From NCBI GenBank assembly GCA_964016885.1, contig OZ024755.1:18414001-18478000 (forward strand): 64,000 nt of DNA, given 5' to 3'. Position 1 is the stretch's first letter, and each line of letters begins with the position of its first letter. This stretch comes from Eledone cirrhosa (taxonomy: Eukaryota). Position numbers and translations under genes: made by a program. Of the stretch, positions 325 to 48,110 are shown piece after piece. The notes below the pieces were generated by a model, which was given only the letters and a program-made list of their open reading frames with translations, ran no database searches and had not been told where the DNA came from.

Positions 325-502
325 TATATATACTCTGTGTGTGTGTGTGTGCATATTTCTATTCACACATTGTTTACATGATAGGAAATTTTTCTTAGAA
401 TTAAGTTAAAAAAAATTCTAAGAAGTTAAAAAAAATTCTAAGAAAAATTTCCCATCAGGTAAACAATGTGTGAACATAAATATGCACACACACACACAGA
501 GA

Positions 503-510
<8 letters not shown>
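325..510. repeat. Imperfect fold-back palindrome (~75-bp arms) including flanking microsatellite
   Basis: ttcacacattgtttacatgataggaaatttttcttagaatt (~362-402) is inverted at ~434-474. Symmetry extends through the (GT)n/(CA)n and atatatactct/agagtatatat. Confidence 0.8.
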
Positions 511-554
<44 letters not shown>

Positions 555-559
555 AATTT

Positions 560-656
560 GGGACCCCAAATATTTCACATTACCCACTCTACTACCCCTA
601 TTATCGAGTACTCTGGTGAGTAATGGTCTAACTGGTCTTTACTGCTTTCATTCTGA
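560..656 (+). mobile_element. Fragment of the same (AT)n-embedded element family as 998-1183
   Basis: attacccactctactaccc..tatcgagtactctggtgagtaatggtc aligns by eye with 1104-1160; flanked by (AT)n. Confidence 0.6.
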
Positions 657-959: not shown

Positions 960-997
<38 letters not shown>

Positions 998-998
<1 letters not shown>

Positions 999-1183
999 AA
1001 CCAGTAAGACCCCGACGGCTGAGCTCAAGCCGTTTCGACGGCTAATTCATCAATTAGCCGTCGAAACGGCTTGAGCTCAGCCATCGGGGTCTTACTGGTT
1101 CCTATTACCCACTCTACTACCCTAAGTATTGAGTACTTTGGTGCGTTATGGTCCACCTGGTTCCTTACCACATTTCCTTCGTT
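998..1183 (+). mobile_element. PLE-like non-coding element with 50-bp fold-back centred on a putative hammerhead stem II
   Basis: Arms 998-1047 and 1052-1101 (1 mismatch), loop CATC. Each arm carries the 3' half of an HHR: GAAAC-ggct..agcc-GTC/ATC. Inserted in (AT)n. Confidence 0.65.
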
Positions 1184-1331
1184 ATATATATATATATATA
1201 TATATATACAAACACACACATATAAATATACACACACCTACACATATATATATACATACAAACACACACACATATAAATATACACACACCAGCATATATA
1301 AAAATATTCCCCCCACACATATATAAATGAT

Positions 1332-1362
<31 letters not shown>

Positions 1363-1389
1363 GATTTATGATATATATATATATATATA

Positions 1390-1772
1390 TCATCATCATC
1401 ATCATCATCAGGTTTAGTGTCCGTGTTCCACGCTTGCATGGGTTTGGACGGGGGTTTTCCCACTTGAGGCAAGAGTGGTTGTCTTGCTCGCATAGGACTG
1501 TCTGGCGGGTTTTCTACAGTTGGATGCCCTTCCTAACACCAACCACATTTACAGTGTGGGGCTGGGAGGTTTTTACCGTGTTGCCTACATGGCCACATTA
1601 CAGCGTGGACTGTCTGGCGGGTTTTCTACAGCTGGATGCCCTTCCTAACACCAACCACATTTACAGTGTGGGGCTGGGAGGTTTTTACCGCGTTGCCTAC
1701 ATGGCCACATTTACAGCGTGCACTGTGTGTTTTTTTGTCGTGACACCTACACGATCTCATTTGTTTCGGCCT
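1390..1772 (-). mobile_element. SINE with RTE-type (GAT)n tail, internal duplication
   Basis: (CAT)n followed by the recurrent ctacagctggatgcccttcctaacaccaacc block, present twice; homologous to 15420-15735 and 47545-47815. Confidence 0.8.
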
Positions 1773-1810
1773 ATATATATATATATGATTTATGATATAT
1801 ATATATGATT

Positions 1811-1857
<47 letters not shown>

Positions 1858-4219
1858 TTATGATATATATATATATATATGATATATATATATATATAAA
1901 CAAAATTTAATATTTCTTTAAAGCTCTCTTTATTATTGAATCTCTTCACTCCTTTACCAGGTCTTTTAACCATTCATCTGTGACTTGAACAATATATTAT
2001 TTTCTATAAATCTTCACCTTCCCCCACAAACGTGTGTTACATTCAGTACACATCAATGGATTATTTCATATTGTGTATGTAACAGCCCAATAACTGCACC
2101 ATTTATTTGACATACACTAAATATACAATAACAACAACAACATCAACCTGTTACAGAAATCAATAAATTAATCACCCGATCAAACCCTCTTCATAATATT
2201 AAATAACAAGGTAGAATAAGAGAAAGAAAGTATCAATAGACCTTTTCTACACTAAATAAATATTGGCACAAGGCCACATCTTTTAGGGGTGGGTATGAAG
2301 AGTTGATTAAATCCTGTCCCTACCTCCCGTTTTATTTTATCGACCCCTACCAGAAGGATGAAAGGTAAATTCGAACTTCGAACTTTAAATGCCTGTAAAC
2401 ATATTTTACTACGCCGTGTTTTGTGTGATGCTCCAACTATTTAATTGATCCAATACTTTCCTCCCTTTAGATATATATTAATTACTAACTTGAGCATAAC
2501 ACTACAGTTTTGTAAGAGGTTGGTTGGGTGTATAATCAAGTGAAATAATTCCAGTAGATTGTTGTTAGCGGTAGTGTTGTTGTTAAAGCTCACACTCTAT
2601 GAAGGTCCCTGGGTCCTTTAATGATTAGAGACCCCGAGACCCCTGTCTTATCATGTCACCATTTTCCAGCACCAGGAGACATAATAATTTAAACTCAGAA
2701 CACACAAAGCCTACACCAGAAGGATTTGAATTGTAAATGTATTCCTTAAATTCCACATGGTATTTTAGATTTTAGTTCTTGATTATTTTCAACATTAATT
2801 GAAAATCATAGGCAGTGTTTTTTTTTTTTCCATTAGAAATATAGTTTCGAAAAGGTTAATAAAATTTGTAAAATAAGATAGGTTTGTGTGAGTTCTGGCA
2901 TTTTGGGTAGGGCCCTTTTTTTCAAAGAAATCTGAAGTGTGTTGGAAGATTATGAATAAATAGCCTTCTCATTTCTTCAAAACAAACGGCCCTGCCCAAA
3001 ATGCCAAAATTAATCTTTCTTCACATTCACAGCTTAGAAACTTATCTTGTTTTACAAATGTTATTACTAGTTTGAGTCTTCTGAAATACCCCTGAGTCTT
3101 ATAACAGCTGAGCCATGCACACCCGCACAAATACACACACTCTCTCTTCCTCAAGCAACAAGAAAACATACTCTAAACACTTCATATGTACAGAAAATAA
3201 TTCTTCTTCGGCTAAAAGTCAGACAAAATTAATTATACATGACAGCTCACACTATGTGATACAATTAATTGTATATATTTACATATATACAAAATGATGA
3301 GTAAATTCTTTTTATCCTCTCTGAAGAATTATAAGATTACAGTGCAGCAAAAGTGAAACACCAAAATGAACAGCAATGATGTTTTACTGGCTTGGCACTA
3401 TCCACCAATGTATATATATTTTTTTAAATCTTTGAGGTAATATGTAAAAATGAGATGCCGTAAAAATGCCAAGAACAATTAATACCAATAATAGAACTTT
3501 ATTGCCGAACACTGTTAGAATGTCAGAAGCCACATATTTATATGGAGACACACAGGAGATCTGATACAGATAGTGAAACAATACATTGGACTCCTCACAG
3601 CTGTAGAACACCTGACATAAACATAATAGAACCTCCATCAGTTTCAATGCTGGACTTTGATAGAATACAAAATACAATCATTCTATCAATTGGGTGGAAA
3701 GGGGTGGGTGGGTGAACTTGTGAATTAAAATATAAGTGGTTGAGTATTCCACAGATATGCGTACCCTTGTACCCTTAACACAACGCACAGGCAGAACCAG
3801 TGTGACACTGGTCAAGGCTTTTGTATTACAAAGTAAAAGACACTGGGTCAAGATTCCACACAGTGGAACCAAACCTGGAGCCTCATGATCCAGAAGTAAA
3901 CTTCTTACCCATTTAGCCATACTGTATCTATACTAGAAGTACACAGAAGCAGATTATTGGTACTTTCTTTCCTCTTTTGACTCATTTGTTTAAGAAAGAA
4001 AGAATACATGTTGGAAAGATCGATTGACAAGATCTTAGACCTACTTGCTTACCAAGTGAGATAGAACTTGTCAAATTGGACCAATAGAAAGACCAATGTT
4101 TCCATTGGTCTTTCTATTACTGATACTAACTCCTGGCAGAAAGAGCAACATGAAATAAAGTGTCTTGCTCAAGGACATAACACATCACCTGGTTCAGGAA
4201 TCGAACTTGCAGCCTCATT

Positions 4220-4410
4220 GTGGATTGGCAGTATCGGTAGAGGGTCGGACGGCATGATTTGCAGCAAAGAGTTACGGCCCTTTATGGTCTGAGTTCAAAT
4301 CCCGCCGAGGTTAACGTTGCCCTTCATCCTTACAGGGGGTCGATAAAATAAAGTACCAGTAATACACTGGGATAAATGCTGGCCTTGTGCCAAAAGTAGA
4401 AACAATTATT
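4220..4410 (+). mobile_element. tRNA-derived SINE family A (octopus-type)
   Basis: A-box-like tggcagtatcgg and B-box gagttcaaatccc, then the conserved gcctttcatccttacggggtcgataaaataaagtaccag body; about 20 copies or fragments in the window. Confidence 0.85.
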
Positions 4411-4510
4411 ATGAATCTAATCCTTTAACCACTAAACCTCACTTAGTGGATCTTAGTCATATAACCAAAAATGAAAATAGAATTATGCGTAACCTGTAGA
4501 GTCATAATAA

Positions 4511-4696
4511 GTGTTTCTACTTTTGGCACAAGGCCAGCAATCACCAGTGTATTACTGGTACTTTATTTTATCGACCCCGTAAGGATGAAAGGCAAAGTTA
4601 ACCTCGGCGGGATTTGAACTCAGAATGGCAAGGGCCGTAACTCTATGCGTCAAAGCATGGCGTCTGACCCTCTACCAGTACTGCCAATCCACCGCC
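4511..4696 (-). mobile_element. SINE family A with ~17-bp target-site duplication
   Basis: Full copy flanked by cctgtagagtcataata (from 4493) and cctgtagagtcatgata (from 4697). Confidence 0.9.
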
Positions 4697-4734
4697 CCTG
4701 TAGAGTCATGATAATGAAAGGAAATTATGTTAGC

Positions 4735-5133
4735 ATCATCATCAGCCCTACTACCACTCCACCATCACGACCGTCACCACCACCATCACCACCACCACCA
4801 CCACCACCAGCAGCAGCAGCAGCCCAGGAAATTGAACATTTCCAACAGCACCATCCTCATCATCCTCATCATCATCATCATCATCATTACCACTCACCAC
4901 CACCACCACCACCGCAACCGCCCAGGAAATTGAGCATTTCCAACAGCACCATTATCATCCCCAGCACCACCACCATCACTACCATCACTACTAACCACCA
5001 ACATCACCCCCACCAACACCACCACCACCACCACTACCACCATCACCACCACCATCACCACCACCACCACCACCACCATCACCCCCACCATCAACACCAC
5101 CACCACCAACACTATTACCCCTACCATCACCAC
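4735..5133. repeat. (CAC/CAT)n compound trinucleotide repeat
   Basis: Direct inspection; produces the poly-His/Pro ORFs. Confidence 0.9.
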
Positions 5134-5363
5134 TGATCCAGGATATTGAGTCTATTCAACGGCACTCAATGATTTATAAAAGTACACAGAAAGTGTAATG
5201 GAAACAAACAACAGACTTAGAGACTTCCTGATATCAAATTTTATTTTTAATTGGAAGGATATGAAAATAATTCATTGATTGTTGATAGAAACTCGCTATC
5301 AACAAACAATTAATAAACAAACAATTAATAAACAAACAATTAATAAACACTGTCTACAAAGTA

Positions 5364-6189
5364 ATAATTTCTACTATAGCACAACGCTAACAATTTGAAG
5401 GGGGTGGGGGTGGGTGGGTGAAATCGATTAAATTGACACCAGTGCATTACTGGTACTTTACTTTATTGACCCTGTAAGGATGAAAGGCAAAGCTAACCGT
5501 GGCAAGATTTGACCTAAGAATGTAAAGGGCCGTAACTCTATGCTGCAGAACATGGTGTCCGACGCTCTACGGGTTCTACCAATACCAAATAATTGTTTCT
5601 ACTTTAGGCACACGGCCAACAATTACCCAGTGCATTACTGGTACTTTATTTTATCGACCCCGTAAGGATGAAAGGCAAAGTCAACCTCGGCGGGATTTGA
5701 ACTCAGATCGTAAAGGGACGTAACTATGCTGGAAAGCATGGCGTCCGACCCTCTACCGATACTGCCAATCCACTGGTTTCTCATTTAGGTAGGAGGCCAA
5801 CAATTTTAGGGGAGGAGAAAGTCGATTAAATCGACCCTAGTGTATTACTGGTGCTTGATTTTATCGACCCCCATAAGGATGAAAAGCAAAGTTAACCTCG
5901 CCGATATTTGAACTCAGACTGTAAAGGGCCGTAACTCTATGCTGCAAAGCATGGCGCCTGACCCTGTACTGATACTGCCAATCCACTGTGATACAAAATA
6001 ACTGTTTCTACTTTAGGCACAAGGCCAGCAATTACCCAGTGCATTACTGGTACTTTATTTTATCGACCCCGTAAGGATGAAAGGCAAAGTCAACCTTGGC
6101 AGGATTTGAACTCAGATCGTAAAGGGACGTAACTATGCTGGAAAGCATGGCGTCCGACCCTCTAGCGATACTGCCAATCCACCGCCCTT
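5364..6189 (-). mobile_element. Cluster of four head-to-tail SINE family A copies
   Basis: Copies at ~5364-5585, 5590-5773, 5775-5986 and 6003-6189. The last is flanked by the TSD tgatacaaaataac (5989-6002 / 6190-6203). Confidence 0.85.
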
Positions 6190-6414
6190 TGATACAAAAT
6201 AACACTGAGTGCTTAGCAACTGTTCCTCTTGTGAATCTCATTATTAGTTAAAATACATCTTTAGACATTTTTGTCAATTTATTAGTTTGTTCTCTGTCTG
6301 CTCTTTAAATCAATTGATATTTTATTGAATATCAAAAATAAATCATTTTTCAAAAAGCCGACCATACCCAATTACACCTCTCAAAGGCGATGATACACGA
6401 CCGCGACCTGATAC

Positions 6415-6717
6415 AGAAGACCTGACCCCCACCCCCCACGGGTACAAGCTGAAGCGGAAGCATATAGACGATATTGACCCACACCCTCCCACTGCAAAGT
6501 GGACGTGTAGGCGCCATGGAAAAAAAGCACCCAGCACTCACTGTAAATGAGGTTGGTGTTAGGAAGGGCATCCAGCCACAGAAAACCTGCCAGATAGTCC
6601 TATACAAGCGAGACACAGTCACCCGACCAATCTTGCCTCAAGTGGGACAACTCCCGTCTAACCTATGCTAGTGCGGAAGAGAGACGTTAAACGATGATGA
6701 TGATGATGATGATGATT
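6415..6717 (+). mobile_element. SINE family B with 49-bp unit and (GAT)n tail
   Basis: cacccagcactcactgtaaatgaggttggtgttaggaagggcatcc block followed by a (GAT)n tail. Confidence 0.8.
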
Positions 6718-6846
6718 CTACCTAACTATAAAAACAACTAATTGTATATTTGATTATTTATCGAAGATTTATATCTAAGCTGAAAGGTTGGTAGTTTACG
6801 CTTGGTTTGTTAACAATACTCCCCTACAACCATGGCAAAGACACTT

Positions 6847-7059
6847 ACCATATTTACTCAAATATAAGCTGATCCGAATATAAGCCAACTTCTCCTATTT
6901 TATGTCTGAGAAATGGGCAAAAACCCAAACCCCATTCATAAGCCGAGGCAGCTAATCAACACCTTATTTAAATGGCATATATAAGCTGACCCCCCCCCCC
7001 ATTCTACCATCGATTTTTTGGTTACATATTCCTCAGCTTATATTCAAGCATATAAGGTA
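6847..7059. mobile_element. Tc1/pogo-like MITE
   Basis: Imperfect terminal inverted repeats taccatatttactcaaatataagctga / tcagcttatattcaagcatataaggta, with TA ends. Confidence 0.6.
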
Positions 7060-7965
7060 ATTTTCTTCTTAATATTTTTTATCGTTTAGTTAGACGGGTT
7101 AGATGGAAGTGTAATTCTCACCACTTCTATTCAGGTCTTCCTCTACTGTGACTTCCTTCCACTGGGATTACTTCACCCAACAATCATCATCCATGTGCAT
7201 CATGGTCGATCATACAAAGTACCAGTCAAAAACTGGGGTTGATTTAATCAATTTTGCTCTTTCCCCCACCAAATTTGTTGGCCTTGTGTTTCTAAATTAG
7301 GGATCAATATTTAATGATTATGATGAACACAAGCTTATACCTCATAAATACATGTTCCTACTACAAACAGTTGAGGAAAGAACAGTTTACAGATGGCACT
7401 ATGTTTAGAATTGTGAATTTGAAGAGGTTTTTTTTTTTCTTATTACAGTTGACTCAGTTATCTTAACTTATGCCTGTCTATTTGACAAGCGCTAACTAGG
7501 TTTACACAAATTATCAAATAGTCAAATAAAAAAAACCTGAGTACAATGAAGTGGGACAACAAACCATTTTTCACCAATATTTGTTCATATTAACTGGATA
7601 GCAGTATAAATAATAGAGTTGGGAGAAGGAGAGGAAAGTTCCATAGTTCTGTGTAGTTTATGAATGAATAGGAAATATTGTTATGAATGGTTAAATAGAA
7701 TGGTTATGTTTATTTAGCCAGATTCAAAACTGGGTAGAAAGCACAGACCATAAAACAATGCTTAATAACAATAGAGTTGAGAGAGAGGAGGGCGGGAGGT
7801 CCTAATATTAAAAAAATGTAGCAAAGATACAATAAATGACATGAGATTAAAGTAGATTTAAGGGATTACATAAAACAATATGGACAAGTAAAACATACAA
7901 ATACATTTCTTTGTGTGTTTGCATGTGTGTATGTGTGTGTGTGTGTGTATATAAATGTTTGTATG

Positions 7966-7997
<32 letters not shown>

Positions 7998-8096
7998 CGT
8001 GTGTGCATGGATATATACATATATGTATGTATCATTTAACGTCCATTTTCCCTAATATATTTGTTCATGTCTGTATATATATATGTATGCATGCAA

Positions 8097-8143
<47 letters not shown>

Positions 8144-8238
8144 AATTAATATTTGTGAGTGGTCAGGATGATTGATTTTGTAGTGTGTGTATATATATAT
8201 ATATATATAGTTATGTAATAAACAACATAAGATAATTA

Positions 8239-8298
8239 TTTCATTTACCAGTGGTTTCTTGAAAGCAAATAAATCTGCTTTCAGTCGTCAGAATGAAA
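8239..8298 (-). ncRNA. Type I hammerhead ribozyme motif
   Basis: Exact reverse complement of 8390-8449. Confidence 0.8.
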
Positions 8299-8389
8299 AA
8301 AACAGTGTTTTTTTATTAAATGTGGATTTGAAAACCCACATTTCAAAACCCATTTTTCAAATCCACATTTAATAAAAACACCATGTTTT

Positions 8390-8449
8390 TTTCATTCTGA
8401 CGACTGAAAGCAGATTTATTTGCTTTCAAGAAACCACTGGTAAATGAAA
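8390..8449 (+). ncRNA. Type I hammerhead ribozyme motif
   Basis: Stem I tttcatt/aatgaaa; CUGACGA (8397-8403); stem II tgaaagcaga/tttgctttca; GAAA; stem III acca/tggt; GUA cleavage triplet (8440-8442). Confidence 0.8.
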
Positions 8450-8541
8450 TAATTATCTTATGTTGTTTATTACATAACTAATAAGCTCTGTAACCTACAT
8501 AGAGCACTCTTTTTTCCTGTACCTTTCCGACGGAATTACTT

Positions 8542-8580
<39 letters not shown>

Positions 8581-9243
8581 ACACACATCCAACCATCTCG
8601 ACCACTCACAAATATAAACTTGAATAATGTTATTAACAGAAATATATAAAAAAAAAATTCCTCTTTAGTAAAACTTTCAGCTTGGTTGGAGGGGAAGGAT
8701 TTAGTAATGAAGGTGAGAACATGGCAGCTGTTTTCATCCTTTGATCTGGAGATTCTTGTTACCATTATCATTATTATTATTATTAAGCATTATTATTATC
8801 ACCATTATCATCATTATTATTTTATATTATTATTGCTCTTATCTCTATTTCCCTGTATTAGTCGGAATATGGATGGAACTCAACAATGTGCTGACGATAT
8901 TTTCTATATAGGAATATGCTGATGAAATTATACAAAAAGACTTGTGAATTCTTTCAAAAATTGTAGTGAATACAACGTATTAATTCTACGATCTTATATA
9001 AATGCTGCATCCCCTCACAACGATGATGATGATGATGATGATGAAGTTGGTGATAACAACAACAACAGCAGCAGCAGCAATAATGATGATGATGATGATG
9101 ATAATAATACTAATAATGATAATACCAAAAATCTAATAAACATAATTGTAGGCGCTTTTCAAAAAAAGCAATTTTCATCATAGAAAATTACTACTACTAC
9201 TACTACTGCTGCTACTACTAATCATAATTACTATTATTATTAC

Positions 9244-9283
<40 letters not shown>

Positions 9284-11982
9284 AATCTTTCAAACAAAGG
9301 AGTCAGACTACTCAAGTTAGTAACAAAAGCCATAATAATAATAAAAAAATGAGTGTAAAATCAAAGAGTAAGCTAAATAGAAAATTAATGGTTGGGGTGG
9401 GGGTAGAGATATAGTGGGGTAGGGATATGGTGGAGTGGGGATGGGGTAAGACCATTTGTCCAATTTTTCGTGTTTTACTAATTTTCAATATTATTCAACT
9501 AAATAAAAAGAACATATAAAAGAATAAATACTTATAAGAACAACTCACTTTCTAAAATCATATTATGGAAAAAAAATGAAATAAAATAAAAATGATAATG
9601 TTTTACCAAAAATGGACTGAAGGTTAAAGCTATTAAAAGCTTTATTTTTAGAAATGTTTAGAAAAAAAGGACAGAACTATTATTGGTCTTTTCCATTTTG
9701 GCTTGGAACAGCATGTAGAGATAGATAGTTCATTTAGTATAATAAATGTATTTGAGTAGTTTTGTGATTGGCTGATTGATTGGTTAAAGATGGTATAAAT
9801 ATGGCTGTTAAGTTAAACACACTGATGGTGAACAGATAAAGACAGAACAGCTGAGTTTGTCTCTTATAAAATATATTACAGCTGCTTCTGATTCACTAAA
9901 AACATACTAGTTTACCTACTATTCCCATTGATTGATAGTTGGTGTTCCAACTGATGATACTTTCTGAGCTTTTATGGAATTCAATTATTTGTATGGTGAG
10001 ATGGGAATCTGGAACATTGAAGAGATTCCATGTTCTCTGTTAATTTTAAACTAATGGATTCCAGCATTAGTTATGATGTTGAAGAGTGTCTGAACTGCTT
10101 TGATAAGTTATCAGACAACTATCTGAGGGATTGGTGGTTTATATATTTTCTCACTGGTAAAGTGTAGTGTCCATGACCAAGATATAGGCCCTCGTGGTCA
10201 AGATATAAGTCCTGTTGGCCACCCTCAACTCTTTAAGTCATTACCATGGGGTAATATGATGACAGTGGGCCCTTCGTTGGGTTCAGTGATTTGATTAACT
10301 GAAACATGTGTCATGTAAATTAACATGTAAGTAGTTGAGTATTCCTCAGGTTATGTATTTACTTATAGATAAGTTTCACTTTCATTTTACATACAACACT
10401 TACAATATACTATATATTTTGAATTGAGGTTTTGTAGGTCTAGTGGGGTGGAGGAACTGAGGAGGTTCAATGGCCACCCAGTAGTGTGTATAAAACAATT
10501 AGTAGACAAATCTCGGTTGGAAGACTGTCTAGGAGAAGGATCATTTTAATTTCAAAACTGGAGTAGATGGGACTCCTTAGTCACTTTGGTAACAACCTTT
10601 CAAGTAGCCAACGACTTTATCCTTGCAATGAAAGTGGGTAAGCTACGACTCAGTAGTCAGCTTCTGGGTAATGGTTGGACAAGGATTTGGGACCCACCCA
10701 ACGTCATTTTTTTCCTGAGGATAATCATGGACATAGAGCATCATATAGATTAGCATTGGTGTTACTGTCCATATCCAAATTAAAAGCTTCCACCATAATT
10801 TCATGTAACAACTGTCTTTGTATAGTTATGTTCCAAACTCAAACTTAATAACAGTTTTTAATGGTTTCTAATTTAGGCAGAAAACCAGTAATTTCAAGGG
10901 GAGGGGTAAGTCGATTATATTAACTCAGTACTTTACTGCTACTTTATTTCATCGACCCTGGGAGAATAAAAGGTAAAGTTGACCATGTTGGGATTTGAAT
11001 TCAGAATGTTAACAACCTAGAACAAATACTGCAAAACATTTTCATTTTTGTCTGACACATTACCAATTCTGCCAACCCTCCACCTACATCAACTTAATCA
11101 GGTAGAAGTTAGTTTTTTTTACTAAATCATTCGAAACTCAGGATTATTTTTGACGTAATTGAATCAGCTAAGCAGTGTATATTAATAGTAATATGTCCAG
11201 GAAAGCGTTAATGCTATAAATAAAGCACAACACTAATTTAGCAAAGACAGTGTGAGGGAATGAGGGAGATAGGTAGGGAAGAAGTTTTTGTCAAAGATAA
11301 AAGTATTAAGTAGATTGTCTAGAACATGTCTGAATACTTTAAATATAGCTGTTGTTTTTTGTGGTTCAGTTCATTTAATTGAATAATCAGGCATGAGAAT
11401 ATTTAGAACAACAACATTCAGTAATAAGCTAAACAATCTGAAGAACTCTTATCTTGAAAAAGAATGAAAAACTAGGAAAGAACAGTCTTGAAATTTTTAA
11501 GAATAGGAGGAAAGAATTTGAAACAAGATATAAACATACAGTAAAAGTAATACATGCACTCCCACATGTGTGTACATGGATGTGTGTGAGTGTATATCAT
11601 CATCGTCAATGTTTTATGTCTATTTTTCATGCTAGTATGGGTTAGACGAGTTGTCCTGTTGTGGGCAATGCTAGGTCAGGTGACCATGTCTTGCTCATAT
11701 AAAACTGCTTTTGGCTTGGTTTCTACAGCTCGATGCCATTCCTAATGCCAACCACATTTACAGTGTGTGCTGGGTGCTTTTTATCATGACCACTTTAATA
11801 ACAAATGTTTTGAAGAACCAAAACGGAGAAAGCAGGCTTTGCTAACATCAATTTTTTTTAATATCTTATACATCCTTTATACATATATACCAGGTGCGCT
11901 TTTCAAACCCTCTTTTAAAATCGTTTCCCTTATATAACATGATCTGTATAGAACGTTTTCTAACGTCCACACTTTCTTCCCA

Positions 11983-12201
11983 CATGGCTTAGTGGTTAGA
12001 GCATTGGCCTTGCAATCGAAAGGTTGTGTGTTCAATTCTCAGACTGGGTGATGTGTTGTTTCCTTGAGCAAGACACTTTATTCCCACATTGCTCCAGTTT
12101 ACTCAGCTGTAGAAATGAGATGATAGGGACTAGGGTCCCTATCATTCCACTGCAAAGTGGTCGTAGAGATGCCACGGCAAAAAAAGCACCCAGCACTCAC
12201 T
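11983..12201 (+). mobile_element. SINE family B, 3'-truncated (tRNA head present)
   Basis: catggcttagtggttagagca (A box) ... gttcaattctc (B box); matches 58546-58740. Confidence 0.8.
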
Positions 12202-12223
12202 AATAGTGAGTGTTGTTCTAGAG

Positions 12224-12900
12224 CAAAGGTTCTCAACGGGAGGCATATGCACCCCCGGGGGGGGGGGGGGGGGGGGCGTTTGGGAGCAAGGTCACGTTAG
12301 GGGGGCGTTTGGGGCTGGGGGGCTGGAAAGCTCTTTATTTTGGTAAGTTTTATAAGCCATATTTGTATGTCTTTGAGACAGCCAGTGTGAATGCATTTGA
12401 ATGAGCTTGCAGACAGCATAACTATAGTCTGACCGCAGCTGTGAGCAGGTGTGCAGGCATGTCCAGTAATTGAGACGTTAACCGGTAATTGAGATCCTAA
12501 AAATGGAAAAAAGCACAGTCAACTGGGTCAAGGACACTTTGAGCGCAGCCAGTTAGAATCTTATCTTTCCTTCATGGATACAATGTATTTCATGTCTAAA
12601 ATTATTGACTCAACCGTAACGAGTTAACACTATGTAGATCTATTTTATTCCCTATTGTATAAATAGAATAAAAAAAAGAAAAGAAAAAACAAAAGCGGGT
12701 CGCACACACATCTAGGACCACATACAACACATAATCAGATAATACACACATCTTTGGAATATTGTTAATCAATTTTTTAGTAATCTACTGATATAAAAAT
12801 CAGTAGTATATTGAAAAATGGAAAAATAGGGGGGGGGGGGGGGGATTCGTGATTTCGAGGGACAAAAGTGGGCGTTTGGCCTAAATGGGTTGAGAACCTG
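12224..12900. mobile_element. Non-autonomous hAT (Charlie-like) DNA transposon
   Basis: Termini caaaggttctcaac / gttgagaacctg and a perfect 8-bp TSD TTCTAGAG (12216-12223 and 12901-12908), the typical Charlie NTCTAGAN target. Confidence 0.85.
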
Positions 12901-39179: not shown

Positions 39180-40210
39180 TACCTCATCCAATGTAGGTGC
39201 AGGGATGGCTGTGTGGTCAGGAGTTTGTGGTGTAATAGGGCCCCCTCCTCACCCATGGAGGGAAAGAGATGGTTGTGTGGTCAGGAGTTTGTGGTGTAAT
39301 AGGGCCCCACCTCACCCACAATATACATGGAGGGAAAGAGATGGTTGTGTGGTCAGGAGTTTGTGGTGTAATAGGGCCCCACCTCACCCACAATATACAT
39401 GGAGGGAAAGCGATGGTTGTGTGGTCAGGAGTTTGTGGTGTAATAGGGCCCCACCTCACCCACAATATACATGGAGAGAAAGCGATGGTTGTGTGGTCAG
39501 GAGTTTGTGGTATAATAGGGCCCCATCTCACCCACAATATACATGGAGGGAAAGAGATGGTTGTGTGGTCAGGAGTTTGTGGTGTAATAGGGCCCCACCT
39601 CATCCACAATATACATGGAGGGAAAGCGATGGTTGTGTGGTCAGGAGTTTGTGGTATAATAGGGCCCCATCTCACCCACAATATACATGGAGGGAAAGAG
39701 ATGGTTGTGTGGTCAGGAGTTTGTGGTGTAATAGGGCCCCTACCTCATCCAATGTAGGTGCAGGGATGGCTGTGTGGTCAGGAGTTTGTGGTGTAATAGG
39801 GCCCCACCTCATCCACAATATAGATGGAGGGAAAGCGATGGTTGTGTGGTCAGGAGTTTGTGGTGTAATATGGCCCCACCTCACCCACAATATACATGGA
39901 GGGAAAGCGATGGTTGTGTGGTCAGGAGTTTGTGGTGTAATAGGGCCCCACCTCACCCACAATATACATGGAGGGAAAGAGATGGTTGTGTGGTCAGGAG
40001 TTTGTGGTGTAATAGGGCCCCACCTCACCCACAATATACATGGAGGGAAAGAGATGGTTGTGTGGTCAGGAGTTTGTGGTGTAATAGGGCCCCACCTCAC
40101 CCACAATATACATGGAGGGAAAGAGATGGCTGTGTGGTCAGGAGTTTGTGGTGTAATAGGGCCCCACCTCACCCACAATATACATGGAGGGAAAGAGATG
40201 GCTGTGTGGT
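39180..40210. repeat. 72-bp minisatellite (~14 units) with 561-bp higher-order duplication
   Basis: Unit tggagggaaagagatggttgtgtggtcaggagtttgtggtgtaatagggccccacctcacccacaatataca; the variant start unit recurs at 39180 and 39741. Confidence 0.95.
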
Positions 40211-40356
40211 TCAGAGAGTTTGTTTTGCAAACTATGTCCTTCTGAGTGTTCAGTCTGTGTGGCACCTCGGTAAAGTGGCTTCTAGTGTAGCCTGAGAGGA
40301 GTCTGGTAGATGGAACTTTAGAACCCCATCATATTATATTTATGTATGTATGTATG

Positions 40357-40636
40357 TAGGGGCCTCGTTTGCCTTAAAATGTGAGGGGGACAAACCAACA
40401 TTTGTTGACTCTTAAAGGGGCATGTTAGTATTGCTTATGGAGCCTTTCCTGGACCCTATCACCTGAGTAAAATTTTACGCTAATTAAATCTTATATATTC
40501 AAATGAAGTTCAGAATTAAAAAAATAAGCTTAAAAAGAATTTATTATATCAAATAAACAAAAAGTAAAACATAGACGTTTGAAAAAGTGGGGTGGGGGTA
40601 CTTGTCCCCTGGTACCCCCCTGAAACAAGGCCCTTG
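40357..40636. mobile_element. hAT-like MITE inserted in (TATG)n
   Basis: taggggcctcgttt / aaacaaggcccttg imperfect TIRs; tatgtatg on both sides. Confidence 0.55.
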
Positions 40637-40643
40637 TATGTAT

Positions 40644-40699
<56 letters not shown>

Positions 40700-40704
40700 T
40701 TGTG

Positions 40705-40751
<47 letters not shown>

Positions 40752-40763
<12 letters not shown>

Positions 40764-40855
40764 TGAACAATGAAAACAAAAGGTGAAGTTTAGTGCTTAA
40801 TCAGTGATTAAGCACTAAACTTCACCTTTTGTTTTCAATTGTTCAACACACACAT
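40752..40855. repeat. Near-perfect palindrome (~50-bp arms, 1-nt centre at 40804)
   Basis: tgttgaacaatgaaaacaaaaggtgaagtttagtgcttaatca-g-tgattaagcactaaacttcaccttttgttttcaattgttcaaca. Confidence 0.9.
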
Positions 40856-40877
40856 ACATATACATAAATATACATAC

Positions 40878-40920
<43 letters not shown>

Positions 40921-41213
40921 AACATATATATACACACATACATATACATATACACACATACATACACACCCACACACAAACAAACAAACACACACACACA
41001 TATATATATATATATAACTCTGTAGCATGTTTGAATGCTCAATGGAATCCAAATACAATGAAAGCCCACAACAACAACAACAACAACAAGAACACTCATC
41101 ACCTGATTTCATTGGACTTATAACTTCTGGACTACATGTAGTTCTAACAGTGTTATTGACCCTACCATAGACAGATAAATACCAGTGTGTGTATGTGTAT
41201 GTGATATATATAT

Positions 41214-43501
41214 ACCAGGTGATGTGTTGCTTCCTTGAGCAAGACACTTTATTTCACATTGCTCCAGTTTACTCAGCTGTAGAAATGAGATGATAGGGAC
41301 TGGGGTCCCTATCATTCCACTGCAAAGTGGTCGTGGAGGTGCCACAGAAAAAAAGTACCCAGCACTCACTGTAAAGTGGACGTGGAGGTGCCACTGCAAA
41401 AAAGCACCCAGCTCCCACTGTAAAGTTGACATGGAGGTGCCACGGCAAAAGAGTACCCAGCATTCACTGTAAAGTGGACGTGGAGGTGCCACTGCAAAAA
41501 AGCACCCAGCTCCCACTGTAAAGTGGACGTGGAGGTGCCACGGCAAAAAAGTACCCAGCACTCACTGTAAAGTGGACGTGGAGGCGCCATGGCAAAAAAG
41601 TACCCAGCACCCACTGTAAAGTGGACATGGAGGTGCCACGGCAAAAAAGTACCCAGCATTCACTGTAAAGTGGACGTGGAGGCGCCACGGCAAAAAAGTA
41701 CCCAGCACTCACTGTAAACTGGATGTGGAGGCGCCACGGCAAAAAAGTACCCAGCACTCACTGTAAACTGGATGTGGAGGCGCCACGGCAAAAAAGTACC
41801 CAGCACTCACTGTAAAGTGGACGCGCCACGGCAAAAAAGTACCCAGCACTCACTGTAAACTGGATGTGGAGGCGCCACGGCAAAAAAGTACCCAGCACTC
41901 ACTGTAAAGTGGATGTGGAGGCGGCACGGCAAAAAAGTACCCAGCACTCACTGTAAACTGGATGTGGAGGCGCCACGGCAAAAAAGTACCCAGCACTCAC
42001 TGTAAACTGGATGTGGAGGCGCCACGGCAAAAAAGTACCCAGCACTCACTGTAAAGTGGACGCGCCACGGCAAAAAAGTACCCAGCACTCACTGTAAACT
42101 GGATGTGGAGGCGCCACGGCAAAAAAGTACCCAGCACTCACTGTAAAGTGGATGTGGAGGCGGCACGGCAAAAAAGTACCCAGCACTCACTGTAAACTGG
42201 ATGTGGAGGCGCCACGGCAAAAAAGTACCCAGCACTCACTGTAAAGTGGATGTGCAGGCGCCACGGCAAAAAAGTACCCAGCACCCACTGTAAAGTGGAG
42301 GCGCCACGGCAAAAAAGTACCCAGCACCCACTGTAAAGTGGAGGCGCTATGGCAAAAAAGTACCCAGCACCCACTGTAAAGTGGGCGTGGAGGCGCCACG
42401 GCAAAAAAGTACCCAGCACCCACTGTAAAGTGGAGGCGCCACGGCAAAAAAGTACCCAGCACCCACTGTAAAGTGGAGGCGCCACGGCAAAAAAGTACCC
42501 AGCACTCACTGTAAAGTGGACGTGGAGGTGCCACGGCAAAAAAGTACCCAGCACTCACTGTATAGTGGACGTGGAGGCGCCACGGCAAAAAAGTACCCAG
42601 CACCCACTGTAAAGTGGACGTGGAGGCGCCACGGCAAAAAAGTACCCAGCACTCACTGTAAAGTGGACGTGGAGGTGCCACGGCAAAAAAGTACCCAGCA
42701 CTCACTGTATAGTGGACGTGGAGGCGCCACGGCAAAAAAGTACCCAGCACTCACTGTATAGTGGACGTGGAGGCGCCACGGCAAAAAAGTACCCAGCACC
42801 CACTGTAAAGTGGACGTGGAGGCGCCACGGCAAAAAAGTACCCAGCACTCACTGTAAAGTGGACGCGCCACGGCAAAAAAGTACCCAGCACCCACTGTAA
42901 AGTGGACGTGGAGGCGCCACGGCAAAAAAGTACCGAGCACTCACTGTAAAGTGGACGCGCCAATGGCAAAAAAGTACCCAGCACCCACTGTAAAGTGGGC
43001 ATGGAGGCGCCACGGCAAAAAATACCCGGCACTCACTGTAAAGTGGACGTGGAGGTGCCACGGCAAAAAAGTACCCAGCACTCACTGTAAAGTGGTCGTG
43101 GAGGCACCACGGCAAAAAAGTACCCAGCACCCACTGTAGAGTGGACGTGGAGGTGCCACGGCAAAACAGTACCCAGCACTCACTGTAAAGTGGGCGTGGA
43201 GGCGCCATGGCAAAAAAGTACCCAGCACTCACTGTAAAGTGGACGTGGAGGCGCCACGGCAAAAAAGTACCCAGCACTCACTGTAAAGTGGGCGTGGAGG
43301 CGCCACGGCAAAAAAAGTACCTATCACCCACTGTAAAGTGGGCGTGGAGGTGCGACGGCAAAAAAGCACCCAGCACTCACTGTAAATGAGGTTGGTGTTA
43401 GGAAGGGCATCCAGCTGTAGAAATCAAGCCAGAATCAGTTCCCTTCCCACCCTTGCAAGCAGGGAAAAGCAGACGTAAAATGAAATGATGATGATGATGA
43501 T
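41214..43501 (+). mobile_element. SINE family B with internal 43/49-bp unit expanded to ~40+ copies
   Basis: Normal SINE 5' part (41214-41320) and 3' part/tail (43380-43501) bracket ~2.07 kb of tgtaaagtggacgtggaggcgccacggcaaaaaagtacccagcactcac units. Confidence 0.95.
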
Positions 43502-43962
43502 ATGGTTTCTTCTACATGGAGTTGCGACGGATAGATAGTATTAGCAATTGGAAAGACCAACGGAAACATTGTTTCCTCGGTCCGATTTGATGAAAGTCGA
43601 TCGACAAATACATGGTTTGGTGTGTCTGAATCTCTCTTTCTGTCCCATTACTTAACGATTCAACAAAAGAGAAAGAAATACTGGGGTGCCTATGATTAGC
43701 TAAATGAAGGTGGTGTTCCAGTATGGCAGCAGTCTAATGAGTGAAACCAGTAAATGAGTGAAATAAATAAACAAAAAGGAAGAAAGCAAACATGTGAGTG
43801 AATGTTCAGTAGCAAGCAGTACTCTTATCCCTCCTTCTCCCCCCTCCTTCACCATCATCATAACCACAAAAAGAGAAAACATAAGAATGAAGCATAGTAG
43901 AATAGATAAAGACCAGATAATTTTTGTAACCTATGAAATTACATATGAGAGAGAGGTGTGTG

Positions 43963-44011
<49 letters not shown>

Positions 44012-44183
44012 GTGTGTGTGTATATATTTATATGTGTGTGTATATATATATATATATGTGTGTGTGTGTATATATGAGTGTGTGTGTGTGCGCGCGTACA
44101 TATATATATATATATATATATATAGATATATAATGATAATTAGGGAACAAAGAATCAGTATTGCATCATATACATATTTAATT

Positions 44184-44272
44184 ACATATTACATATGTTT
44201 CACTGCCGATCAGCTCGAGGTACGATCAATTGTTTATTTCTGATTCTGGAATCGAAAGCTCCTCAGATATGT
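44184..44272 (-). ncRNA. Type I hammerhead ribozyme motif in a ~165-bp insert within (AT)n
   Basis: Minus strand: acatat-CUGAGGA-58 nt stem II region-GAAAC-atat-GUA-atatgt. Perfect stem I and palindromic stem III acatatgt. Confidence 0.8.
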
Positions 44273-44329
44273 GTTCTCACATGTAGACTCACGTCTATAT
44301 ATATTATAGGTAATATGGGTGAAATGATA

Positions 44330-47164: not shown

Positions 47165-48110
47165 GGCTAGATGACCCTTCCTAACAGCAACAACTTTACA
47201 GGGTGGACTGAGTGCATTTTATCATGGCACCAGCTTTACCACTTTACAGGGTGGATTGAGTGCCTTTTATCATGGCACCAGCTTTACCACTTTACAGGGT
47301 GGACTGAGTGCCTTTTATCATGGCACCAGCTTTACCACTTTACAGAGTGGACTGAGTGCCTTTTATCATGGCACCAGCTTTACCACTTTACAGGGTGGAC
47401 TGAGTGCCTTTTATCATTGTACCAGCTTTACCACTTTACAGAGTGGACTGGGTGCATTTTATCATGGCACCAGCTTTATCACTTTCAAAACCACCCTCTC
47501 TATAAAGTTGGTACCACAACATCCAGTCCAAATAAATGAGATAAATGAGATCGAGATCGTGTAGGTGTCACGAGAAAAAACACACAGACCACGCTGTAAT
47601 GTGGCCATGTAAGTAACATGGTAAAAAGTTCCCAGTTCCACACTGTAAATGTGGTTGGTGTTAGGAAGGGCATCCAGCCGTAGAAAACCTGCCAGATAGT
47701 CCTATATGAGTGAGACATGGTCACCTGACCAACCTTGCCTCAAGTGGGACAACTCCCGTCTAACCCATGCTAGCGTGGAAAATGGACGTTAAGCGAAGAA
47801 GAAGAAGAAGAAGAGTGAACTAAGTGCCTTTTATCATGGCACCAGCTTTAACACTTTACAGAGTGGACTGAGTGCCTTTTATCATGGAGCTAGCACTACT
47901 ACTTTACAGAGTGGAGTGGGTGTCTTTATCATGAAGCTAGCACTACTACTTTACAGAGTGGAGTGGGTGTCTTTATCATGAAGCTAGCACTACTACTTTA
48001 CAGAGTGGAGTGGGTGTCTTTATCATGAAGCTAGCACTACCACTTTACAGAGTGGAGTGGGTGTCTTTATCATGGAGATAGCACTATCACTTTACAGAGT
48101 GGAGTGGGTG
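47165..48110 (-). repeat. SINE-derived 46-47-bp minisatellite interrupted by a younger SINE (47545-47815, +)
   Basis: cactttacagagtggactgagtgccttttatcatggcaccagctttac units on both sides of the insertion. Confidence 0.85.

What the first reader, a model, noticed from the sequence alone, without database searches (positions are those of the whole stretch)
998..44272. Multiple hammerhead families repeatedly inserted in or beside (AT)n microsatellites
Seen: outside the array, HHR motifs with paired stems occur at 8239(-), 8390(+), 15066(+), 16657(-), 20269(+), 22844(+), 27275(-) and 44184(-), with partial ones at ~1037-1091 and ~29525. Most lie in 150-400-bp inserts bounded by (AT)n. They fall into families: 20269/27275 (tattttat stem I, AUA site) and 16657/22844/44184 (catat stem I, GAAAC-AWWT-GUA). 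That is about 17 motifs in 64 kb. Inference: (AT)n-targeting PLE-derived elements form a major ribozyme reservoir in this genome and may partly explain or exploit its microsatellite load.
Basis: partly seen in the sequence, partly recalled or inferred. Interest (0 to 1): 0.75.

Follow-up and report, generated by a model that had tools for sequence, protein, structure and literature searches.

The report
Hammerhead retroelement fragments in TA microsatellites
This animal DNA holds several families of hammerhead ribozyme motifs, most of them sitting between TA microsatellites, likely left by Penelope-like retrotransposons and a retrozyme: a known kind of element, here unusually dense and with junctions that suggest how it was copied.

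Summary
My type I hammerhead descriptor recovers 7 of the 8 dispersed motifs and all 9 array copies. Outside the array it gives 6 strict hits against 0.01 per shuffle. The 17 motifs come from 8 insertion events, 6 with a complete core. 22844 is dead, 16657 is decayed, and 29525 is not a hammerhead. Six of 8 events have (AT)n on both sides, against 9.5% by chance. Relatives covary in stems I-III, and helix III stays palindromic, as in dimeric hammerheads. The inserts show the Penelope-like (PLE) insertion pattern of head-to-head arms. The 310-bp array also has a 35-nt tail, and one of its arms starts one base after the predicted cut. No PLE reading frame was found, and activity and expression are untested. 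Hammerheads in PLEs, retrozymes and (TA)n targeting are all published. New here are the host (octopus-like, from recall), the density, and the PLE footprint on a retrozyme array. 'Exploits microsatellites' fits the data; 'explains them' does not.

The parts
997..1182 (.). Foldback insert between (AT)n tracts. Arms 994-1047 and 1052-1105, 79-nt extension on the right arm. Each arm holds the 3' half of a hammerhead; it is intact on the minus arm (about 1010-1047), and the 5' half is lost at the inversion.
8208..8546 (.). Head-to-head insert (arms 8208-8334 and 8354-8480, 98% alike, 66-nt extension) between (AT)n tracts
8236..8301 (-). Type I hammerhead, complete core, C.A mismatch at the base of stem II, GUA site
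8387..8452 (+). Same hammerhead on the other arm
15067..15151 (+). Type I hammerhead with long hairpin helix III, extended stem II, A.C mismatch at the base of stem I, GUC site; (AT)n on the right side only
15939..16136 (+). U3-A8 core at 15977, palindromic helix III, covarying stem I, U16.1C and broken stem II; same 3' end as the array's right arm.
16657..16749 (-). Family B hammerhead, decayed (C3U, G.G at the base of stem II)
20212..20374 (+). 163-bp insert between (AT)n tracts with hammerhead 20269-20339; palindromic helix III, AUA site
22727..22928 (+). Family B insert between (AT)n tracts. Hammerhead remnant at 22844 with about 45 nt of stem II deleted; 19-nt TSD-like duplication in the flanks.
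27232..27523 (-). Insert with hammerhead 27275-27335(-), a 26-nt inverted arm starting at 27409 with about 89 nt of extension, and a TSD-like (TC)n(TA)n duplication; high copy in run X1
29650..32578 (.). 310-bp retrozyme array between (AT)n tracts: 7 units plus 12 nt on the minus strand, 2 units plus 129 nt on the plus strand, head to head at 31830. 9 hammerheads (U.U at the base of stem II, palindromic helix III, GUA site). The 3' ends differ by 35 nt; the plus arm starts 1 nt after the predicted cut.
44133..44296 (-). Family B insert with the intact hammerhead 44184-44272; its 3' homology with the 22844 copy ends at about the same place, next to TA repeats

Best explanation
These are real type I hammerhead motifs in short non-coding inserts, likely 3'-end (pseudo-LTR) fragments of Penelope-like retrotransposons plus one 310-bp non-LTR retrozyme array, likely copied into pre-existing TA microsatellites by the enzyme of an autonomous Penelope-like element encoded elsewhere in the genome.

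Shown here: the motifs, their covariation, the (AT)n flanks, head-to-head arms with 3' ends facing out, unequal 3' ends (35 nt in the array; 66, 79 and 89 nt in three foldbacks), and the absence of a coding frame.

Inferred from published PLE biochemistry: a GIY-YIG endonuclease nicks both strands of a (TA)n target. Each nick primes reverse transcription at one of two internal sites in the RNA, which gives the two arms and the tail. Most cDNAs stop early, leaving 150-400 bp around the ribozyme.

Predicted: motifs with a short palindromic helix III cut as dimers, and 15067 could cut as a monomer. The cut would set the 5' end of at least some templates, as in the array's plus arm. Most dispersed copies are decaying passengers without a host function.
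For: 6 strict motifs against 0.01 per shuffle. Compensatory pairs among relatives: 3 between 44184 and 16657, with 4 positions paired in only one; 6 between the array and 15977, including the core 3-8 pair, with 5 paired in only one; 4 between 20269 and 27275, none broken. In X1, the two common stem variants shown for the 27275 family turn G.U into A-U (70% at 27279, 45% at 27320), and none of the 40 rows shown falls in the core; 18 rows were not shown. Helix III is palindromic in 5 motif sequences, and predicted dimer folds form it between strands for the array, 20269 and 8387. Double (AT)n flanking: 6 of 8 events, against 1 of 20 tRNA-SINE and 4 of 16 RTE-SINE cores. The inverted 5'-truncated arm, 30-40 bp tail and (TA)n bias are described for PLEs in PMC8557442. 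Two-strand priming and two internal start sites are shown in PMC11167929. Opposite-strand hammerhead pairs, palindromic helix III and the U3-A8 variant are in PMC4209133. Other copies in X1 also show opposite-strand joints.
Against: No RT or GIY-YIG remnant in 143 reading frames of >=55 aa (shorter or low-complexity frames were not scanned), and no loose end led to one. Three of four tails (66-89 nt) are longer than the published 30-40 bp. TSD-like flanks occur at only 2 of 9 loci, with null rates of 7 of 541 and 22 of 541. RTE-type SINEs also lie near (AT)n (8-9 of 16), so proximity is not specific. Monomer folding z-scores of the seven full motifs and the array unit are weak (-0.06 to -2.8). 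The predicted dimer folds of 27275 and 15067 do not give the active dimer. PMC11167929 found that hammerhead cleavage was not needed for insertion in vitro and found no RNA ends at the cut. Only 1 of 8 arm starts examined lies at a predicted cut.
Confidence: 0.8

Rival explanations
1. The inserts are monomers and fragments of stand-alone circular-RNA retrozymes, copied by a non-PLE reverse transcriptase such as the RTE-type LINE that is common in this window; the (AT)n flanks reflect that LINE's habits.
For: RTE-type SINE cores lie within 200 nt of (AT)n in 8-9 of 16 cases. LINE fragments are present: homologues of the frame at 36734-36961 include an RT plus endonuclease protein. No PLE frame in the window.
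Against: RTE-type copies here end in (ATG)n tails, and the hammerhead inserts do not. Head-to-head arms with a 35-nt tail are the PLE pattern. The 2026 preprint derives animal retrozymes from PLE pLTRs.
Confidence: 0.1
2. The elements create the microsatellites: (TA)n is added or seeded at each insertion, so they explain the genome's microsatellite load.
For: Tracts abut the inserts on both sides in 6 of 8 events. The array's right end falls at an internal short AT run of the monomer.
Against: 120 tracts of >=5 units against about 10 hammerhead loci. Compound flanks with non-TA letters are duplicated on both sides at 27275 and 22844, as expected if the target existed first.
Confidence: 0.05
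3. The motifs are chance matches in AT-rich low-complexity DNA, and the foldbacks are library or assembly chimeras.
For: The descriptor was tuned after inspection. No Rfam hit at gathering score. The array units are identical.
Against: Shuffles give 0.01 hits. Covariation among relatives. The arms of the 8.2-kb, 1.0-kb and 0.4-kb foldbacks differ by 2-6%, so they are older than the library. An independent run holds the family with pair-keeping variants.
Confidence: 0.03

Closest known systems
Minimal and palindromic-helix-III hammerheads in pseudo-LTRs of Penelope-like elements (Cervera & de la Pena 2014, PMC4209133; first 2 of 4 parts read)
   Same: Type I topology, long helix II, short palindromic helix III, many divergent families per genome, mostly single truncated copies, pairs on opposite strands 100-700 bp apart, U3-A8 core variant.
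   Different: No parent ORF found here. Helix III inserts are longer (4-6 nt) and one motif has a stable hairpin. Local density is about 1 per 10 kb. Cephalopods do not appear in the parts I read.
Non-LTR retrozymes of animals (Cervera & de la Pena 2020, PMC7229834, passages read; Li, Clavereau & Pollet 2026, bioRxiv 10.64898/2026.07.22.740005, first 3 of 5 parts read)
   Same: 310-bp low-GC tandem unit with one type I hammerhead per unit and no ORF; U.U mismatch at the base of helix II as in axolotl HHR_Amex2.
   Different: Here the array carries a PLE insertion footprint (head-to-head arms, 35-nt tail, (TA)n on both sides, one arm starting at the cut). I saw no such footprint described in the parts read. 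Circular RNA and cleavage are not shown here.
(TA)n-biased EN+ PLEs, Neptune and Naiad clades (Craig et al. 2021, PMC8557442; passages and section 6 read)
   Same: (TA)n targets, heavy 5' truncation, inverted 5'-truncated arm, tail at one end.
   Different: Naiads lack canonical hammerheads and are only remnants in cephalopods, so a Neptune-like parent is the better guess (inference). The clade cannot be assigned without an ORF.
PAc Poseidon element of Anolis (Frangieh et al. 2024, PMC11167929; main text read)
   Same: Cuts and extends both strands at AT-rich DNA; two internal RT start sites define the tail.
   Different: Its hammerhead is dispensable for insertion in vitro and no RNA ends map to the cut, whereas one arm here starts at the predicted cut.

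Membership tests
Type I hammerhead ribozyme | Core CUGANGA ... GAAA ... NUH | tested here: met
   Met at 8236, 8387, 15067, 20269, 27275, 44184 and 9 array copies. C3U at 16657; U3-A8 with U16.1C at 15977; core present but stems lost at 22844.
Type I hammerhead ribozyme | Three helices with covariation among relatives | tested here: met
   3, 6 and 4 compensatory pairs in three pairwise comparisons, with 4, 5 and 0 positions paired in only one copy; pair-keeping variants in X1. Few sequences, so no formal covariation statistic.
Type I hammerhead ribozyme | Match to a curated Rfam hammerhead model | tested here: inconclusive
   None at gathering score; array copies at 19.2 bits against 52 for HH9, E 3.8. 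Rfam models likely fit these variants poorly (inference).
Type I hammerhead ribozyme | Self-cleavage at NUH | not testable with these tools
   Indirect only: the array plus arm starts at 31830, and the predicted first base after the cut is 31829.
Autonomous Penelope-like element | ORF with telomerase-like RT and GIY-YIG endonuclease | tested here: not met
   No such Pfam hit in 143 frames of >=55 aa. The inserts are therefore not filed as autonomous PLEs.
PLE-mobilised non-autonomous fragment | Inverted 5'-truncated arm next to the main copy | tested here: met
   Array, 8208-8546, 997-1182 and 27232-27523: 4 of the 10 hammerhead-bearing loci; opposite-strand joints in X1.
PLE-mobilised non-autonomous fragment | 30-40 bp tail at one end | tested here: inconclusive
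   35 nt in the array; 66, 79 and 89 nt in the three foldbacks.
PLE-mobilised non-autonomous fragment | Homology to the pLTR of a full-length PLE | not testable with these tools
   No genome held; two metagenome pattern scans were empty; the loose ends shown were uninformative.
PLE-mobilised non-autonomous fragment | (TA)n insertion bias | tested here: met
   6 of 8 events flanked on both sides, null 0.095.
Non-LTR retrozyme (array only) | Tandem unit of 150-450 bp, low GC, type I hammerhead in each unit, no ORF | tested here: met
   310 bp, GC about 0.33, 9 motifs in 9.4 units.
Non-LTR retrozyme (array only) | Expressed as linear and circular monomer RNA | not testable with these tools

The most novel reading that the evidence does not exclude
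This genome may hold tens of thousands or more of hammerheads in many TA-targeting families, at a higher density than the published animal counts I read and invisible to Rfam. Its retrozyme insertions would record in DNA that hammerhead-cut RNA is the template that the Penelope enzyme copies, giving a genomic readout of ribozyme cleavage in vivo and a direct mechanistic link between retrozymes and Penelope-like elements.
Probability: 0.25. Interest if true: 0.65.

Novelty: new member of a known kind. Interest (0 to 1): 0.42.

Why it matters
Two questions are open in the papers read: what PLE hammerheads do in vivo, and which enzyme moves animal retrozymes. The 2026 preprint argues from phylogeny, and the one in vitro study found cleavage dispensable. 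A retrozyme array with the PLE tail and inversion, one arm of which starts at the predicted cut, makes both questions testable by mapping arm starts across a single genome. The motifs are missed by Rfam, so ribozyme counts for such genomes (235 Hammerhead_1 hits in giant squid, PMC6962438) are probably underestimates. As a system it is not new.

Tried and rejected
Whole-genome scan: no genome is held, so genome-wide counts were impossible.

Rfam: nothing relevant at gathering score; the E-value hits were microsatellite hairpins.

Pfam on 143 frames: two sub-threshold hits, no PLE.

Minimal-hammerhead and U3-A8 scan with strict stems: 0 hits in the window. It needs 4 unbroken pairs in stem II and so also misses the known motifs; uninformative.

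Metagenome pattern scans: 0 and 0. Earlier findings by place and by sequence: nothing.

Run search with the array monomer: 20 of 24 listed runs hold half or more of its words, from 16 studies and 17 organism labels; no RNA holder listed. I considered horizontal transfer and found no support. Of 4 runs laid, X6 and X11 gave 17 and 39 records that include the window's SINE at trace depth, and X21 gave 6 reads under 90% alike. This looks like trace DNA of the host in other samples.

A step in depth at the predicted cut of the 27275 family: not supported. Depth falls near the stem II/GAAA border (my reading, tables 2 and 3). One X1 joint reaches the cut position 27282, but a 5-nt microhomology explains it equally well, and the other joints shown lie elsewhere.

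29525 as a type II hammerhead: rejected by eye, since no GAAA adjoins the pairing strand.

Host identity: homologue searches gave no organism names, and the cluster look-up could not be made. 'Octopus' is recalled from SINE and microsatellite patterns and comes from no call.

Lunse et al. 2016 (dimeric PLE hammerheads) is not held. I saw only its citation and a summary in the review PMC6765202, so it may list cephalopod motifs. No supplements were read for any paper, and they may list octopus hammerheads.
Full report
Setting. The window is AT-rich, repeat-dense animal DNA with 167 tandem-repeat rows. No Pfam family reached its cut-off in 143 frames of 55 aa or more. It is full of SINEs and LINE fragments; homologues of one frame include an RT plus endonuclease protein. 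I take the host to be an octopus from recalled SINE and microsatellite patterns; no call named it. No genome is held.

Are the motifs real? A first strict scan found three dispersed motifs. I then allowed one stem mismatch and one core mismatch. This recovered 8236-8301(-), 8387-8452(+), 15067-15151(+), 20269-20339(+), 27275-27335(-) and 44184-44272(-) with complete cores, 16657-16749(-) with C3U, and 9 array copies. It also gave three overlapping noise hits in an (ATG)n tract. With the array removed, counts at scores 8/10/12/14 were 10/6/5/5 (any core) and 6/6/5/5 (strict core). In 100 dinucleotide shuffles the means were 0.14/0.03/0.02/0 and 0.02/0.01/0/0. The thresholds were set after looking, but the gap is over a hundredfold. 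22844 was not recovered: alignment shows a deletion of about 45 nt in stem II and a broken stem I. The 17 motifs are 8 events, because 8236/8387 are two arms of one foldback and the array units are identical. Rfam missed them all at gathering score and gave the array 19.2 bits on HH9.

Partial motifs. The foldback at 994-1105 carries a clean 3' half on its minus arm. 29525 has only the first box; it belongs to a two-copy family with 29111-29327 (z 35) that has a covarying hairpin but no hammerhead topology that I could find. I found one more decayed motif, at 15977, in a relative of the array monomer (z 10).

Families and covariation. 16657, 22844 and 44184 are homologous (z 8.0-19.7). 20269 and 27275 share a 15-nt match and nothing detectable outside the ribozyme (z 1.3). 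Compared in register, 44184 against 16657 has 3 compensatory pairs, 1 one-sided change, 11 the same and 4 paired in only one. The array against 15977 has 6 compensatory (including C3-G8 to U3-A8), 1, 2 and 5. 20269 against 27275 has 4, 3, 11 and 0. Helix III is palindromic in 20269, 27275, 44184, 16657 and the array. Predicted dimer folds form helix III between strands for the array, 20269 and 8387, but not for 27275 or 15067. Monomer folding z-scores are weak.

(AT)n. With tracts of 5 or more units, 6 of 8 events lie within 200 nt (null 0.24-0.27, p 0.006). With 4 or more units, 6 of 8 are flanked on both sides within 250 nt (null 0.08-0.095, p 2e-5). For controls, tRNA-SINE cores are near a tract in 2-6 of 20 and doubly flanked in 1 of 20; RTE-SINE cores are near in 8-9 of 16 and doubly flanked in 3-4 of 16. 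Proximity is therefore shared with another retroelement, and double flanking is stronger for the hammerhead inserts. Flank duplications that include non-TA letters occur at 2 of 9 loci: 27275 (12 letters; 7 of 541 random pairs reach this) and 22844 (10 letters; 22 of 541 reach 8). This favours a pre-existing target.

Insertion anatomy. Four loci are head to head, with 3' ends facing the (AT)n on each side and one arm longer: by 35 nt in the array and by 66, 79 and 89 nt at 8.2, 1.0 and 27.3 kb. Craig et al. describe this arrangement and a 30-40 bp tail for PLEs. Frangieh et al. trace the tail to two internal RT start sites with both strands primed. The array's plus arm begins at 31830; the first base after the predicted cut, in register, is 31829, with a 2-nt microhomology at the junction. 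This is 1 of 8 arm starts examined. By a rough hand estimate, a hit this close somewhere among 8 arises 15-20% of the time, so it is a lead and not proof. It runs against the Anolis result that no RNA ends map to the cut.

Outside evidence. The array monomer is held by 20 of 24 listed runs. I laid 4 runs on 26870-27655. X1 gave 44,072 contigs. Summed depth was 2.3-4.2 million on the SINE piece, 1.9-2.4 million on the 3' side of the 27275 hammerhead (AT-rich, so probably inflated), 0.5-0.8 million at its core and stem I, 0.26 million in loop II, and 0.02-0.08 million further 5'. That pattern fits a large family with a conserved core, a variable stem II and 5' truncation. The tool states that these sums are not copy numbers, and the stretch had no single-copy control, since the flanks proved repetitive too. 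The two common stem variants turn G.U into A-U; 18 variant rows were not shown. No listed piece spans the stretch, so the empty-site test failed. X6, X11 and X21 held traces only.

What is known. PLE hammerheads, thousands per genome in many families, opposite-strand pairs and the U3-A8 variant are in PMC4209133 (parts 1-2 of 4). Retrozymes are in PMC7229834 (passages: over 6000 motifs in a coral, about 5000 in a mussel, 126,247 in axolotl). Their PLE origin is argued in the 2026 preprint (parts 1-3 of 5). (TA)n bias is in PMC8557442 (passages and section 6). An O. vulgaris repeat annotation lists 31 recently active Penelope-like families and never mentions hammerheads or ribozymes in its main text (PMC13282606, passages). 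Searches for hammerhead with octopus, ribozyme with cephalopod (26), retrozyme with mollusc (25) and PLE with hammerhead and microsatellite or TA repeats listed no paper on octopus hammerheads, judged from listings. The giant squid paper gives 235 Rfam hits (passage). The library lacks most subscription papers, and no supplements were read.

Verdict. The finding is real and mostly as described, but there are fewer events than motifs, one named family is unproven, and the parent element was not found. It is a new set of members of a known kind. The density of about one complete dispersed motif per 10 kb comes from one window chosen for attention and may overstate the genome. The most useful new point is the PLE footprint on the retrozyme array. 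Interest 0.42.

Noticed in passing
window 29111-29327 and 29352-29549: Two related inserts (76% over 113 nt) between (AT)n tracts. They share an 8-bp hairpin with 3 compensatory and 1 one-sided change, enclosed by a conserved 4-bp stem, and a (C/U)UGAUGA box on the plus strand, but no complete hammerhead and no Rfam match. Possibly another structured RNA of a PLE-like element.
   Followed up: partly
window 325-511 and 40760-40849: Two more foldback inserts in or beside microsatellites (arms about 94-96% alike), without a recognisable hammerhead.
   Followed up: partly
window 550-655: Second copy (84% over 58 nt) of the extension of the 997-1182 element, also between (AT)n tracts.
   Followed up: partly
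window 34829-35356: Four copies of a unit of about 100 bp separated by (AT)n(AC)n, with 33 nt similar to the RTE-type SINE; no hammerhead found.
   Followed up: no
window 32617-32965: A 350-bp complex insert between (AT)n tracts right of the array, with no other copy in the window and no Pfam hit in the one frame scanned.
   Followed up: partly
window 32280-32587 in public runs: The array monomer turns up under 17 organism labels in 16 studies, even in a run of 4 million letters. This suggests a very high copy number and that it marks trace DNA of this host.
   Followed up: partly
window 41318-43386, 18605-19045, 47193-48110: A 47-49 bp internal unit of an RTE-type SINE has expanded into long minisatellites (43 copies at 41318).
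   Followed up: no
window 27005-27190: The left flank of the 27275 insert is itself a high-copy repeat in run X1 (summed depth 0.03-0.8 million).
   Followed up: no
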